Shown here: positions 17,882 to 20,482 of the stretch, piece after piece | Layout: the number at the start of each line of letters is the position of its first letter | Position numbering within the stretch: position 1 is the first letter of the stretch | IMG/VR virus record: IMGVR_UViG_644736364_000004 | From: a virus | Taxonomy: Duplodnaviria > Heunggongvirae > Uroviricota > Caudoviricetes | Direction: 5' to 3' (one strand) | DNA length: 41,621 bases | Program-made: the position numbers and the translations under genes | Notes under the pieces: model-generated | The model's input: the letters and a program-made list of their open reading frames with translations, nothing else | What the model was told of the DNA's origin: nothing | The model's database searches: none

Positions 17882-18175
17882 TTATTGTGAGCAATACACA
17901 CGCGCTTCCAGCGGAGTATAAATGCCTAAAGTAATAAAACCGAGCAATCCATTTACGAATGTTTGCTGGGTTTCTGTTTTAACAACATTTTCTGCACCAC
18001 CACAAATTTTTGCTGCATCGACAGTTTTCTTCTGCCCAATTCCCGAAACGAAGAAATGATGGGTGATGGTTTCCTTTGGTGTTACTGCTGTAGGTTTGTT
18101 TCCAACAGTAAACGTCTGTTGAGCACATCCTGTAATAAGCATTGCCAGAGCGGCAGAAAACAACATTTTTTTCAT
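17882..18175 (-). CDS. bor: Bor lipoprotein (serum-resistance type), 97 aa
   Basis: From the ATG at 18175: MKKMLFSAALAMLITGCAQQTFTVGNKPTAVTPKETITHHFF… matches lambda Bor; lipobox LITGC. Confidence 0.85.
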   Translation of the reverse strand: MKKMLFSAALAMLITGCAQQTFTVGNKPTAVTPKETITHHFFVSGIGQKKTVDAAKICGGAENVVKTETQQTFVNGLLGFITLGIYTPLEARVYCSQ

Positions 18176-18655
18176 CTTATTATCCTGCATTGTTAAAAAC
18201 GGCAGAATCCTATGTGACAACAATTAAACGATAGTTAAATGGATTGATGAAAATTAAAACTACACAGGTGGGCTCAGACTATTGGAGGAAGTTGGGGACA
18301 CTCAGAATCCTGTGGAATGAAATAAACCGGTCTATCCGTCCATTACCCTTTTAGCTGCGCTGTATCGTCGCCGTATTCCCGCATTAACCATGACCGTAGC
18401 CCGACGGGGAATTCCTTCTGCGTGAGTGTGCGGGAATAATTAAAAACGATGCACACCGGGTTTTTACCGCGTTAATGATTCGCGGGTTTATCCCGGTGCG
18501 ATGGTGGAAGAAACAGGAAGCTGTATTACAGAAAGTGCTACTACTGTATCCCGATGCGATGTATGTAATGTGAGTCAGATAATGGCACAGGATGTGGTGA
18601 TGTGGCAGTCTGGAACACAGGATATATTGTCAGAATAAGACCCGTAGGAATAAAA

Positions 18656-18982
18656 ATGAAAAGACGCCTTTTACTACTTTTTCTGTTATCTGTCCTGGCA
18701 GTGGGATGCTCGCAGCAAAAAGCTGATGAGCCCCGGCAATTAGTGACGGTGTATCCACGATATCCGGAATATGCTGCAGCAAATTATATCAAGGGGCTGG
18801 TTGAGGTTAAGTTCGATATTGGTGCTGATGGGACTGTGACACGGATCGTTTTTCTCCGCTCAGAGCCTCATAATTTGTTTCGTGATGAAGTGGTGAAGGC
18901 CATGGCGAAATGGCGATTTGAAAAGAATCGCCCCTGTCAGGGAGTGAAGAGACAATTTATCTTTACGCCGTCACGTCCTTGA
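18656..18982 (+). CDS. Putative envelope lipoprotein with TonB C-terminal-like domain, 108 aa
   Basis: ATG at 18656 preceded by AGGA; signal peptide with lipobox (LAVGCSQ). The TonB-C-like call is by eye. Confidence 0.5.
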   Translation: MKRRLLLLFLLSVLAVGCSQQKADEPRQLVTVYPRYPEYAAANYIKGLVEVKFDIGADGTVTRIVFLRSEPHNLFRDEVVKAMAKWRFEKNRPCQGVKRQFIFTPSRP

Positions 18983-19345
18983 TGCTTCCAGGTAGAGAGG
19001 GGCTGGAAGCAGGAGAAAAATGAAAGAGCCAGCGGTTATATTTTTGTCATGGCTGACGAGGAATGATGGAAGAAGGCGTTGTATGCCACACAACGCCTCA
19101 CTGTTCATTTCTTCTTTTTCTCTGGTGGAACCCGATGAATAAGAGTTGCACTGGTTTCCGATGAGATGGCGATATACTCGGGCAAAGTATGCTGGCAGTT
19201 TTCCAACTGGTCAAAAATACCTGCTCTCGTCTGTTGCAATGCCTGCAGCATGCGGCGGCAATGCGCCTTGCTTTTACTAACCATCTTTCCTTCCTCTATC
19301 AGTCGCTGCGTGAACTCATCATGGAATACCAGGTAAATGCGGATG

Positions 19346-19594
19346 TTATCGGTTTTGGCTACGCAGCATAGTACAAAACGGACAGGTGCATCCCGGGACG
19401 GGGGAGGCGTCACATGTCCCTGTGATGGTTGTTCCGGGTAATGTACTGTGTGGGGCATAAAAATGTCCGATAATTTTACTTTCTACCGCAGTTAGTTGAT
19501 TCGTTGGTCCTGGTAGCACATTGGGCGAGGATTTAAATGCCAGGCAACTGAAGGATGATGTCGCAAGGGAGATAGCGAGAATATTTCTGATTTT
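19346..19594 (-). CDS. Small hypothetical secreted protein, 82 aa
   Basis: In-frame ATG at 19594 gives signal-peptide-like MKIRNILAISLATSSFSCLA; overlaps another minus-strand ORF (19105-19458), so the gene model is uncertain. Confidence 0.3.
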   Translation of the reverse strand, partial: KIRNILAISLATSSFSCLAFKSSPNVLPGPTNQLTAVESKIIGHFYAPHSTLPGTTITGTCDASPVPGCTCPFCTMLRSQNR

Positions 19595-19745
19595 CATTTG
19601 ATGATGCCTCTGTGTGAAATGACGGTAAACGACGCACTTGTGCCGGCACATAATAGCAAGCACCATAATAGATCAGATTCGATTCTTGCTGTAAGTGATA
19701 ATTATTCTCGTTTTCGGGTCCTTTCCGTCGATCCAACAGGTTACG

Positions 19746-19757
19746 GGGCGGCGACCT
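19746..19757 (+). other. cos: cosN: 12-nt cohesive-end sequence GGGCGGCGACCT
   Basis: Sequence …CAGGTTACG|GGGCGGCGACCTCGCGGTTTTTCACTATTTATGAAAATTTT… matches the lambda cos junction as recalled; about 180 bp upstream of the terminase small-subunit gene. Confidence 0.65.
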
Positions 19758-19794
19758 CGCGGTTTTTCACTATTTATGAAAATTTTTCAGGGAA

Positions 19795-19920
19795 AATCGT
19801 GTCGGTACTTCTCGAATATAACTTTTTGTTTTTTTTAATATTGCATCCGTAAAGGTCCGACATGAAAGTGTCCGAAAATGCCTTTTTCTGGCGTTTTCAT
19901 GTCGGGCCTTGTATTTGATA
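19795..19920. promoter_or_regulatory. cosB-like region with repeated terminase-binding candidates
   Basis: Repeats GTCCGACATGAAA (19855-19867) and its near inverse TTTCATGTCGGGC (19895-19907), plus GTCGGTAC at 19801; these differ from the lambda R-site consensus. Confidence 0.4.
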
Positions 19921-19933
19921 ATGGGTTGTTTTC

Positions 19934-20482
19934 ATGAAGGTTAATAAAAAGAGGCTTGCCGAAATTTTCAACGTGGACCCGCGGACGATTGAACGCTGGC
20001 AGTCTCAGGGACTCCCTTGCGCCTCCAAAGGTAGTAAGGGCATTGAATCTGTATTTGATACTGCCATGGCAATTCAGTGGTATGCGCAGAGGGAAACTGA
20101 TATCGAAAACGAAAAGCTCCGCAAAGAACTGGCCGATTTGCGTGCGGCAGCGGAGTCAGATTTACAACCCGGCACCATTGACTATGAACGCTACCGGCTC
20201 ACAAAAGCGCAGGCAGATGCGCAGGAACTGAAAAATGCCCGTGAAGACGGAGTAGTGCTGGAAACTGAACTGTTTACCTTCATTCTGCAACGTGTGGCAC
20301 AGGAGATTTCGGGGATACTTGTGCGTGTGCCGTTGACATTACAGCGTAAATATCCGGACATTTCACCATCACACCTTGATGTGGTGAAAACTGAAATCGC
20401 GAAAGCCTCCAATGTTGCAGCTAAGGCCGGTGAAAACGTGGGCGGGTGGATCGATGATTTCAGACGCGCAGAAGGCAGCTAA
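19934..20482 (+). CDS. nu1: Terminase small subunit (Nu1 / phage-21 gp1 type), 182 aa
   Basis: [28 protein letters not shown]… aligns with lambda Nu1 (MEVNKKQLADIF…) with clear divergence. Confidence 0.9.

What the first reader, a model, noticed from the sequence alone, without database searches (positions are those of the whole stretch)
17882..18982. Two envelope lipoprotein morons at the lysis-cassette boundary
Seen in sequence: Bor (lipobox LITGC) on the minus strand and, 480 bp away on the plus strand, a 108-aa lipoprotein (lipobox LAVGCSQ) with a TonB C-terminal-like look, separated by a non-coding stretch. Established: Bor is a lysogen-expressed serum-resistance lipoprotein. Inference: the second lipoprotein is another lysogenic-conversion envelope factor.
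Basis: partly seen in the sequence, partly recalled or inferred. Interest (0 to 1): 0.35.

Follow-up and report, generated by a model that had tools for sequence, protein, structure and literature searches.

The report
Bor, TonB-domain lipoprotein, conserved RNA

Summary
Bor/Iss lies at 17882-18175 (minus strand, lipobox LITGC). A 108-aa lipoprotein lies at 18656-18982 (plus strand, LAVGC|SQ), 480 bp away, just after the pinholin, SAR-endolysin and Rz/Rz1 genes. The DNA is 100% identical to E. coli Nissle 1917 and other strains, and the protein is identical to phage 21 gp73. Both genes are already annotated ("Iss", "TonB family protein"), so neither is new.

The second protein is a genuine TonB C-terminal domain: Pfam 7e-13, AF2 pLDDT 87, TM 0.88-0.92 and about 1 Å rmsd to E. 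coli TonB. It lacks TonB's membrane anchor and proline-rich spacer. It is under purifying selection (dN/dS 0.13).

It belongs to an uncharacterised Enterobacterales family of about 110-aa lipoproteins. Some members are chromosomal. Others sit directly after the spanin genes, co-oriented with them, in at least four phage types. Many relatives carry a Fur-box-like site 16-19 nt upstream of the start codon; this allele has lost it and has no convincing promoter of its own.

My best guess (inferred, about 0.35) is an outer-membrane TonB-box decoy that blocks TonB-dependent phages and colicins. Lysogenic conversion is not shown.

The gap is not empty. Positions 18355-18521 hold a covariation-supported plus-strand RNA structure. 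It is present in lambda, DLP12, Stx phages, ES18 and 84% of complete E. coli genomes, with no Rfam match.

The parts
17389..17850 (+). Rz i-spanin, with the Rz1 o-spanin embedded at 17609-17791. This is the end of the lysis cassette (context).
   Evidence: ORFs; RefSeq and phage 21 annotation.
17809..17823 (-). Terminator-like hairpin followed by a T-run, just downstream of the bor stop codon on the minus strand.
   Evidence: Consensus scan. This is a pattern match only.
17882..18175 (-). bor/iss: a 97-aa outer-membrane lipoprotein (lipobox LITGC).
   Evidence: Pfam PF06291 at 1.1e-30. 93% identical to HK629/lambda Bor. Annotated iss in Nissle 1917 and 'outer membrane lipoprotein complement inhibitor' in phage 21.
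18176..18354 (.). Variable spacer. It is not conserved between phage types and is the site of a 1.3-kb IS3-family insertion in some strains.
   Evidence: Alignment A4; IS3 in hits H1-H7; L068 has bor and the TonB-like gene 1.3 kb further apart with the conserved block intact.
18355..18521 (+). Conserved structured RNA element. Helices: P1 18362-18368/18446-18452; P2 18376-18383/18429-18436; P3 18395-18399/18418-18422; P4 18400-18402/18407-18409; P5 18467-18471/18481-18485; P6 18493-18497/18513-18517.
   Evidence: More conserved than the adjacent coding gene. Found in 432 phage records and 4582 of 5426 E. coli genomes. On A6, 94.9% of cells are paired and 11 pairs show double changes versus 3.6 in shuffles, 0/500. 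RNAalifold gives -28.0 for the plus strand versus -11.2 for the minus strand. G-U pairs are common and A-C pairs rare. No Rfam match. No coding signal.
18646..18649 (+). AGGA ribosome-binding site, 6 nt before the ATG of the TonB-domain lipoprotein.
   Evidence: Read from the sequence; phage 21 annotates an RBS at the same place.
18656..18982 (+). TonB C-terminal-domain lipoprotein, 108 aa. Signal peptide 18656-18706; lipidated Cys18 codon 18707-18709; TonB_C fold roughly residues 26-103 (18731-18964).
   Evidence: Pfam and NCBIfam. Gapless alignment to E. coli TonB 151-230. AF2 pLDDT 87.3. Foldseek to 1u07, 2gsk_B and 2grx_C with TM 0.88-0.92. dN/dS 0.13. Cys invariant and +2 never Asp in 47 relatives.
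18984..19010 (+). 8-bp hairpin (GCTTCCAG/CTGGAAGC) directly after the stop codon, with no T-tract, so not an intrinsic terminator.
   Evidence: Read from the sequence; not reported as a terminator.
19746..19757 (+). cosN cohesive-end sequence GGGCGGCGACCT. The lipoprotein gene therefore lies in the last 1.1 kb of the virion chromosome.
   Evidence: Sequence; coordinates agree with the end of the phage 21 record.

Best explanation
The region holds three separate things at the junction between the lysis and packaging genes of a phage-21-type lambdoid prophage.

(1) bor/iss is the known lysogen-expressed outer-membrane lipoprotein. It lies on the opposite strand and has its own terminator-like hairpin.

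(2) A roughly 167-nt structured RNA element lies on the late-operon strand. It is conserved across lambdoid phages whatever sits on either side of it.

(3) A small lipoprotein consists of only a lipid anchor, a tether of about 8-12 residues and a TonB C-terminal domain.

Shown:
- The fold, the invariant lipobox cysteine, purifying selection, the family distribution and the gene position.

Follows from established rules:
[quoted passage not shown] That places the domain beside the periplasmic mouths of TonB-dependent transporters.

Inferred mechanism:
- The domain binds TonB-box peptides by beta-strand augmentation, as TonB does, but cannot transmit energy.
- It therefore acts as a decoy or cap that uncouples transporters from TonB.
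- This would block entry of TonB-dependent phages (T1/phi80 type) and group-B colicins and microcins.
- It would be a general counterpart of the FhuA-blocking lipoproteins Llp and Cor.

The ancestral gene appears to be iron (Fur) regulated. The allele in this window has lost that site and is most likely transcribed as part of the late operon.
For: TonB C-terminal domain identity:
-. The best structural matches include the TonB chains of the BtuB:TonB and FhuA:TonB complexes.
- The TonB aromatic core (F180, F202, W213, Y215, F230) and the YP motif are kept (with residue numbering from my own knowledge).

Not a full TonB:
- Scores are far below the TonB equivalog cut-offs, and a lipobox replaces the transmembrane anchor.

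A lipoprotein sorted to the outer membrane:
- Cys is invariant in 47 relatives. The +2 residue is S, A, T, V or G and never D. The tether is 14-23 residues to the invariant Pro.

A functional gene:
- dN/dS 0.13 at dS 1.37 between the two E. coli alleles.

Link to the TonB/iron regulon:
- Fur-like 19-mers (14-16 of 19) end 16-19 nt before the start codon in L084, L085, L086, L218, L220 and L223/224. The background frequency is 0.007-0.02 per window.

Precedent:
- Overproduced periplasmic TonB domain inhibits TonB-dependent iron import in E. coli (Howard 2001, as cited in PMC9841981).
- The phage lipoprotein Llp binds the periplasmic face of FhuA from the outer-membrane inner leaflet (bioRxiv 10.64898/2026.03.26.714494).

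Repeated capture by phages at the same site:
-.
Against: - No experiment or expression data were found for any member.
- TonB residues implicated in TonB-box contacts (Q160, R158, R166; numbering from my own knowledge) are Y, T and Y here, and beta3 ends in Thr-Pro.
- A decoy would also cost the host iron and B12 uptake.
- There is no PADLOC match.
- The phage's own receptor-binding protein is identical to that of phage 21. Phage 21 is reported to use LamB (cited in PMC12803456), so the protein would not exclude its own kind.
- If it is made only late, exclusion would bring little benefit.
- Chromosomal members with no phage context suggest a housekeeping role that need not be defensive.
Confidence: 0.35

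Rival explanations
1. Lysogenic-conversion virulence or fitness factor in the sense meant by the first reader. The protein is made from the prophage and changes the envelope for the host's benefit (serum, host iron or immune interactions), as Bor/Iss does, without acting on TonB boxes.
For: It sits next to bor/iss in strains such as Nissle 1917 and APEC or ExPEC isolates. Relatives have their own Fur-like site, which implies expression outside the lytic cycle. The region between lysis genes and cos is a classic place for cargo genes.
Against: This allele lacks the Fur-like site and any convincing promoter. The gene moves independently of bor. The domain is a periplasm-facing protein-binding module with no known surface role. 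Chromosomal members occur in non-pathogens such as Pantoea and Rahnella.
Confidence: 0.15
2. Positive accessory of TonB-dependent transport. Under iron limitation the lipoprotein holds or organises transporter N-termini (TonB boxes, signalling domains) at the outer membrane. This would help uptake or signalling, not block it.
For: Fur-like sites upstream of many members. Stand-alone chromosomal genes in several Enterobacterales, which suggests a cellular role. The TonB C-terminal fold.
Against: It does not explain repeated capture by phages directly behind the lysis genes. Soluble periplasmic TonB domain is inhibitory, not helpful. There is no ExbB/ExbD or transporter gene nearby.
Confidence: 0.15
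3. Late lysis accessory, as the PHROGs label 'Rz-like spanin' implies. The protein would be an outer-membrane lipoprotein made with the spanins that helps to break or time disruption of the outer membrane or its link to peptidoglycan.
For: phrog_1267 'Rz-like spanin' at 5e-43. It always lies directly after the spanin genes in the late orientation, in five phage types. No promoter or terminator of its own in this window.
Against: The phage already has a complete Rz/Rz1 pair. The protein has no C-terminal membrane segment, coiled coil or proline-rich o-spanin character; it is a compact TonB C-terminal domain. Chromosomal relatives are not next to lysis genes. The PHROGs name is probably carried over from neighbouring genes.
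Confidence: 0.08
4. Decaying fragment of a captured tonB gene with no function, as old annotations imply ('partial tonB-like', 'TonB fragment').
For: Database names. It covers only the last third of TonB.
Against: dN/dS 0.13. A newly acquired and invariant lipoprotein signal in 47 relatives. 100% protein identity across dozens of otherwise mosaic prophages. Confident compact fold.
Confidence: 0.03

Closest known systems
Lambda Bor / plasmid and prophage Iss (Pfam PF06291)
   Same: The minus-strand gene is a member. It has a full-length Pfam match, is 93% identical to lambda-type Bor, has the same lipobox and lies in the same place after Rz on the opposite strand.
   Different: Nothing of note. 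It is the phage-21 / chromosomal iss allele. The lambda-type predicted bor promoter (TGGACA-N15-TACAAT, annotated in HK629) is degenerate here.
TonB energy transducer (E. coli TonB; PDB 1u07, 2gsk, 2grx)
   Same: The C-terminal domain has 38-40% identity, aligns without gaps to residues 151-230, and matches at about 1 Å rmsd with TM 0.88-0.92. The YP motif and aromatic core are conserved.
   Different: It has no N-terminal transmembrane anchor, no proline-rich spacer and no ExbB/ExbD partner. A lipoprotein signal anchors it from the outer-membrane side instead. It scores far below the TonB equivalog cut-offs. It therefore cannot transduce energy.
Phage receptor-blocking outer-membrane lipoproteins Llp (T5) and Cor (phi80, N15, HK022)
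   Same: All are small phage-encoded lipoproteins predicted to sit in the outer-membrane inner leaflet and act on the periplasmic face of a TonB-dependent transporter (for Llp). This is what I propose the protein works like.
   Different: The fold is unrelated. Foldseek found no viral structure match at E <= 0.001. The proposed target is the generic TonB box, not FhuA specifically. The activity is untested.
Soluble periplasmic TonB fragments (Howard et al. 2001)
   Same: A TonB C-terminal domain in the periplasm without an energy connection inhibits TonB-dependent uptake. This is the experimental precedent for a dominant-negative effect.
   Different: Those were artificial, over-expressed, soluble constructs that included the spacer. 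This is a natural, lipid-anchored, short-tethered version.
Spanins (PHROGs phrog_1267 label 'Rz-like spanin')
   Same: It is a lipoprotein encoded next to Rz/Rz1 in the late orientation.
   Different: It has none of the defining spanin features (see the membership test). The label is probably an annotation carry-over.
Known prophage RNAs (AgvB, AsxR, Esr41, STnc100, IsrK, DicF, Pas sRNAs, svsR)
   Same: The 167-nt element is also a prophage-borne, non-coding, conserved RNA-like element.
   Different: It has no Rfam match at E <= 1. PasA, PasC and PasD lie upstream of the holin and PasB within structural genes. svsR lies at the 3' end of cI. This element has no promoter or terminator of its own and sits between the lysis and packaging genes.

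Membership tests
Bor/Iss (PF06291) | Full-length match to the Lambda_Bor profile above the curated cut-off | tested here: met
   106 bits against a cut-off of 25, covering profile positions 1-75 of 75; 93% identity to HK629 Bor.
Bor/Iss (PF06291) | Lipoprotein signal with a lipobox cysteine | tested here: met
   MKKMLFSAALAMLITG|C.
Bor/Iss (PF06291) | Expressed in the lysogen and confers serum resistance | not testable with these tools
   Known for lambda Bor and Iss from the literature; not measured for this allele.
TonB energy transducer | N-terminal transmembrane anchor that couples to ExbB/ExbD | tested here: not met
   The N-terminus is a 17-residue signal peptide ending in lipobox AVG|C. 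No exbB or exbD lies nearby.
TonB energy transducer | Proline-rich periplasm-spanning spacer | tested here: not met
   Only about 8-12 residues separate Cys18 from the folded domain.
TonB energy transducer | TonB C-terminal domain (PF03544 / TIGR01352) with the TonB fold | tested here: met
TonB energy transducer | Score above the NCBIfam TonB equivalog cut-offs | tested here: not met
   Best score 69 bits against cut-offs of 265-448.
Receptor-blocking phage lipoproteins (Llp/Cor) | Small phage-encoded lipoprotein sorted to the outer membrane | tested here: met
   Met by sequence rules only: lipobox present and +2 is Ser, never Asp in the family.
Receptor-blocking phage lipoproteins (Llp/Cor) | Llp/Cor fold or sequence family | tested here: not met
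   No BFVD match at E <= 0.001; the fold is the TonB C-terminal domain.
Receptor-blocking phage lipoproteins (Llp/Cor) | Blocks infection through a TonB-dependent receptor | not testable with these tools
   Needs plating and adsorption assays.
Spanins | o-spanin: very short proline-rich lipoprotein, usually embedded in or overlapping the i-spanin gene. u-spanin: lipoprotein with a C-terminal membrane segment. | tested here: not met
   Separate gene 800 bp after Rz; 91-residue globular mature protein; no C-terminal hydrophobic segment; Rz/Rz1 already present.
Moron (own promoter and terminator, expressed from the prophage) | Own promoter upstream and terminator downstream of the TonB-domain gene | tested here: not met
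   No conserved sigma-70-like site and no plus-strand terminator in this window. Relatives have a Fur-like site that is deleted here. Consensus scans cannot exclude weak promoters.
Moron (own promoter and terminator, expressed from the prophage) | Accessory gene, present in some but not all related phages, with flanks that recombine independently | tested here: met
   Found in only 15 of 50,697 phage records. It is combined with different endolysins and Rz types, with or without bor, and with six terminase small-subunit types.
Any Rfam RNA family (for the 18355-18521 element) | Covariance-model match | tested here: not met
   No match at E <= 1 inside 18176-18655.

The most novel reading that the evidence does not exclude
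The 'non-coding stretch' contains an undescribed class of phage RNA. It is a roughly 167-190-nt structured element on the late-operon strand, with a long 5' hairpin (P1-P4) and two 3' hairpins (P5, P6). It has sharp borders and no promoter or terminator of its own.

It is kept at the junction between lysis and packaging genes in lambda itself, phage 21, DLP12 of E. coli K-12, 933W-type Stx phages, mEp460 and the Salmonella phages ES18 and SPN3UB, whatever genes flank it.

It would act in cis on the late transcript, for example as a processing or stability element, or as an element that sustains late transcription or translation into the head genes. Alternatively it could be cut out as a small RNA.
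Probability: 0.45. Interest if true: 0.7.

Novelty: new variant of a known kind. Interest (0 to 1): 0.5.

Why it matters
**The TonB-domain lipoprotein.** If it is a TonB-box decoy, it would be a new, general way for a prophage or a cell to shut the TonB-dependent entry route used by many phages, colicins and microcins.
- It would be a natural version of the dominant-negative TonB fragment.
- It is relevant to phage therapy, to colicin and microcin competition in the gut, and to TonB-targeting antibacterials.
- It is carried by widely used and clinically important strains, including Nissle 1917, the type strain ATCC 11775 and APEC or ExPEC lineages.
- It is directly testable in phage 21 and E. 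coli K-12.

**The RNA element.** It would be a conserved structured RNA in the best-studied phage family. It is present in 84% of complete E. coli genomes, yet I found it neither annotated under the matches inspected nor in Rfam.

**The ordinary part.** Bor/Iss is textbook, and both genes are already annotated.

Tried and rejected
- **Protein coding in the gap.** The 45-aa 'orf45' annotated in phage 21 (18501-18638) has no conserved start or reading frame in the 72% allele or in other phages and no PHROG match. The two frames that stay open across the 5' domain give pN/pS of 1.05 and 0.69 with no three-base periodicity. Rejected.
- **The conserved block as merely the bor promoter.** HK629 annotates a predicted promoter inside it. 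However, the -35 and -10 positions are not the conserved ones. The block is kept in phages without bor. Pair changes favour a plus-strand RNA. Rejected as the sole explanation, although IncF plasmids keep the first 104 nt with iss.
- **An alternative helix, ACCGGG/CCCGGT.** It forms in the window's own minimum-free-energy fold but is broken in the CCTGT variants, whereas P6 covaries.
- **Known RNAs.** Rfam found nothing. svsR and the Pas sRNAs lie elsewhere.
- **A Fur box in the window.** No match with up to 3 mismatches anywhere in the window. The best match upstream of the gene is 10 of 19.
- **Own promoter for the TonB-domain gene.** Only weak candidates were found, and they are not conserved.
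- **Defence-system libraries.** No PADLOC match.
- **First AF2 run.** With a shallow alignment it gave pLDDT 61; I replaced it with a 47-sequence alignment.
- **Literature.** I found no paper on this protein family or on the RNA element. The last search was spoiled because 'borD' matched 'Bordetella'. Howard 2001 could not be read directly.
- **Association of the RNA element with the TonB-domain gene.** Rejected. The element is absent from the Klebsiella and other non-E. coli phage loci that carry the gene.
Full report
**Context.** The window is a lambdoid prophage of the phage 21 type.
- Positions 16680-17850 encode the S21 pinholin, the SAR endolysin and Rz/Rz1. Position 19934 starts the small terminase subunit, and cosN (GGGCGGCGACCT) lies at 19746-19757.
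- Window 17600-19950 is 100% identical to E. coli Nissle 1917, ATCC 11775 and many other strains. Of 5426 complete E. coli genomes, 819 carry at least 80% of it.
- In Nissle the two genes are annotated 'increased serum survival lipoprotein Iss' and 'TonB family protein'.
- The 108-aa protein is identical to phage 21 CPT_21_73, 'TonB C-terminal domain protein'. The genome announcement assigns it no function (PMC9119081).
- The C-terminus of the tail-tip protein J is also 100% that of phage 21.

**Observation.** One correction applies: bor starts at the ATG at 18175, not at the upstream TTG of the mechanical ORF.

**Bor.** It gives a full-length Lambda_Bor match and is 93% identical to lambda-type Bor. 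It lies on the opposite strand with a terminator-like hairpin behind it. This is the textbook gene. Its role in serum resistance is established knowledge and was not tested here.

**The second lipoprotein: what it is.**
- It is a bona fide TonB C-terminal domain. It matches Pfam TonB_C at 7e-13 and TIGR01352 above its cut-off.
- It aligns without gaps to E. coli TonB residues 151-230.
- With a 47-sequence alignment, AlphaFold2 gives pLDDT 87, and above 96 for residues 31-100.
- Foldseek returns E. coli TonB C-terminal-domain structures first, including the chains bound to BtuB and FhuA, with TM 0.88-0.92 and rmsd about 1 Å.
- No viral predicted structure matches.
- It is not a TonB. It scores far below all TonB equivalog cut-offs. 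A lipoprotein signal replaces the membrane anchor, and there is no proline-rich spacer.

**Selection and family.**
- The gene is under purifying selection. Against the 72%-identical allele of Stx1a phages, dN/dS is 0.13 at dS 1.37.
- An exhaustive HMMER search and a profile search define a family of about 108-130-aa proteins in Escherichia, Klebsiella, Raoultella, Citrobacter, Erwinia, Pantoea and Rahnella, plus a genome labelled Salmonella.
- In 47 aligned members the lipobox cysteine is invariant. The +2 residue is S, A, T, V or G and never Asp.
- By the established Lol sorting rule this predicts anchoring in the outer membrane.

**Genomic context and regulation.**
- Some members are stand-alone chromosomal genes among unrelated metabolic genes. 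Examples are Raoultella, Pantoea and the Salmonella-labelled genome.
- Others are in prophages, always directly after the spanin gene, co-oriented with it and before the terminase. The packaging systems differ: Nu1/A here, Terminase_2/6 in K. pneumoniae, HNH-TerS-TerL in L223/224, and Klebsiella phage ST13-OXA48phi12.4.
- Within E. coli the gene block is about 100% conserved while its neighbours vary. The endolysin is 33% or 100% identical, Rz is 68-100% identical, bor is present or absent, and six small-terminase types occur. It is therefore an independent cargo module and not a partner of bor.
- In six to seven diverged relatives a Fur-box-like 19-mer (14-16 of 19 matches) ends 16-19 nt before the start codon. 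The background frequency is 0.007-0.02 per 95-nt window.
- The 72% E. coli allele keeps a weak version (13 of 19). The window allele has a 13-bp deletion there and no Fur-like site.
- I found no convincing promoter of its own and no plus-strand terminator between Rz and cos. This allele must therefore at least be read by Q-modified late transcription. Whether it is made in the lysogen is unknown.

**Mechanism (inferred).**
- A TonB C-terminal domain held about 8-12 residues from the inner leaflet of the outer membrane sits where transporter TonB boxes emerge.
- TonB binds those boxes by beta-augmentation on beta3 (PMC11658791).
- A periplasmic TonB domain without an energy connection inhibits TonB-dependent import (Howard 2001, cited in PMC9841981).
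- Phage lipoproteins that act on the periplasmic face of FhuA already exist, such as Llp.
- I therefore favour a TonB-box decoy that blocks TonB-dependent phages and bacteriocins (confidence about 0.35).
- Against this: polar contact residues of TonB are not conserved; the decoy would cost iron uptake; the phage itself is reported to use LamB; and there are no data.
- The rivals are a host-benefit conversion factor, a positive accessory of TonB-dependent transport, a lysis accessory (the PHROGs label 'Rz-like spanin', which the fold contradicts) and a dead fragment (refuted by the selection data).

**The gap.**
- Aligning upstream regions showed that 18355-18521 is more conserved between the two alleles than the coding gene. 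The block is about 76-80% identical by blastn, while the gene is 73% identical with synonymous sites 63% different.
- The block occurs in 432 of 50,697 phage records, including lambda-type phages, 933W-type Stx phages, mEp460, ES18 and SPN3UB.
- It occurs once in DLP12 of MG1655, between borD and ybcV, where no RNA is annotated.
- It occurs in 4582 of 5426 complete E. coli genomes, with a median of 2 copies and up to 11, and no feature annotated under the listed matches.
- It always lies just after Rz or bor and before the packaging genes. Its borders are sharp and at least ten different downstream sequences follow it.
- On 22 diverse sequences, a five-helix structure has 94.9% of cells paired. 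Eleven pairs show changes on both sides, against 3.6 ± 1.3 in shuffles (0/500). Slid controls give 32-55% paired.
- RNAalifold independently recovers P1, P2, P4 and P6 and adds P3.
- The plus strand folds far better than the minus strand (-28.0 versus -11.2 kcal/mol). G-U pairs are frequent and A-C pairs rare. The RNA is therefore in the sense of the late operon.
- It has no Rfam match, no coding signature and no promoter or terminator of its own.
- It is not tied to the TonB-domain gene, because the Klebsiella phage loci lack it.
- IncF plasmids keep its first 104 nt upstream of iss. In lambda-type phages a predicted bor promoter lies inside it. A DNA-level role on the other strand may therefore overlap.
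- Its function is unknown. A cis-acting element of the late transcript is my best guess.
- Caveat: the sequences are related, so shuffle counts overstate significance.

**Verdict.** The finding is real and correctly described but largely already annotated. The lysogenic-conversion reading of the second protein is unproven and, for this allele, rather weakened. Two things came out of the follow-up:
- a testable decoy hypothesis for an uncharacterised lipoprotein family that appears to be Fur-linked;

Noticed in passing
window 18355-18521 (+): A conserved structured RNA-like element lies in the 'non-coding' gap. It is present in lambda, phage 21, DLP12, Stx phages, ES18 and 84% of complete E. 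coli genomes. It has no Rfam match and no feature was annotated under the matches I inspected.
   Followed up: yes
L084 5964-5982, L085, L086 5972-5990, L218 6037-6055, L220 4997-5015, L223 322-340; window 18628-18655 for comparison: Fur-box-like 19-mers (14-16 of 19) end 16-19 nt before the start codon of many homologues of the TonB-domain lipoprotein, both chromosomal and prophage-borne. The window allele has a 13-bp deletion at that place and no such site.
   Followed up: partly
L096 2187-2211 and L097 2186-2210 (also many IMG/VR loci): In one class of Stx and lambdoid phages a strong Fur-box-like sequence (AAATGATAACCATTATCATTTT, 15-16 of 19) directly follows the 3' end of the RNA element, ahead of a small ORF and the small terminase gene.
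   Followed up: no
L225 1501-1605 (IncF plasmid NZ_CP010149.1) and about 580 other E. coli plasmids: Plasmid-borne iss keeps the first 104 nt (the whole 5' hairpin domain) of the RNA element about 160 nt upstream of iss, at about 87% identity. The 3' domain is lost.
   Followed up: partly
window 18176-18354; hits H1-H7; L068: Several strains, including APEC O2:K1 isolates, carry a 1.3-kb IS3-family insertion between bor/iss and the RNA element. Both remain intact.
   Followed up: partly
window 18783-18810 (-): The best sigma-70-like match of the whole region (TTAACC-16-TATAAT with a TG, 10 of 12) lies on the minus strand inside the TonB-domain gene and points towards the RNA element and bor. 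It could drive antisense transcription or be a distant bor promoter.
   Followed up: no
window 15009-16151 (-): A third envelope cargo gene lies between the Q antiterminator and the holin. It is an OmpC/NmpC-type porin on the opposite strand, annotated ompC in Nissle 1917. It is present in only some of the related prophages.
   Followed up: no
window 19346-19597 (-), inside ORF 19346-19666: An unannotated minus-strand ORF has an internal start, MKIRNILAISLATSSFSC..., that looks like a signal peptide with a lipobox-like SFSC. It has no PHROG match. It overlaps the RefSeq hypothetical gene at 19189-19371 (+), which matches phrog_3744 of unknown function.
   Followed up: partly
PHROGs phrog_1267: The PHROGs family that contains this TonB-domain lipoprotein is labelled 'Rz-like spanin', which the fold contradicts. 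It is probably an annotation carried over from neighbouring genes. NC_004913 and NC_049918 also label the RNA-element region 'Rz-like spanin'.
   Followed up: partly
window 19691-19715 (+): A Fur-like or AT-rich palindromic sequence (GTAAGTGATAATTATTCTCGTTTTC, 14-15 of 19) lies about 30 nt before cosN. It may simply be part of the cos region (cosQ or an IHF-type site).
   Followed up: no
cI region of the window (not located): [quoted passage not shown] I did not check whether this window carries it.
   Followed up: no
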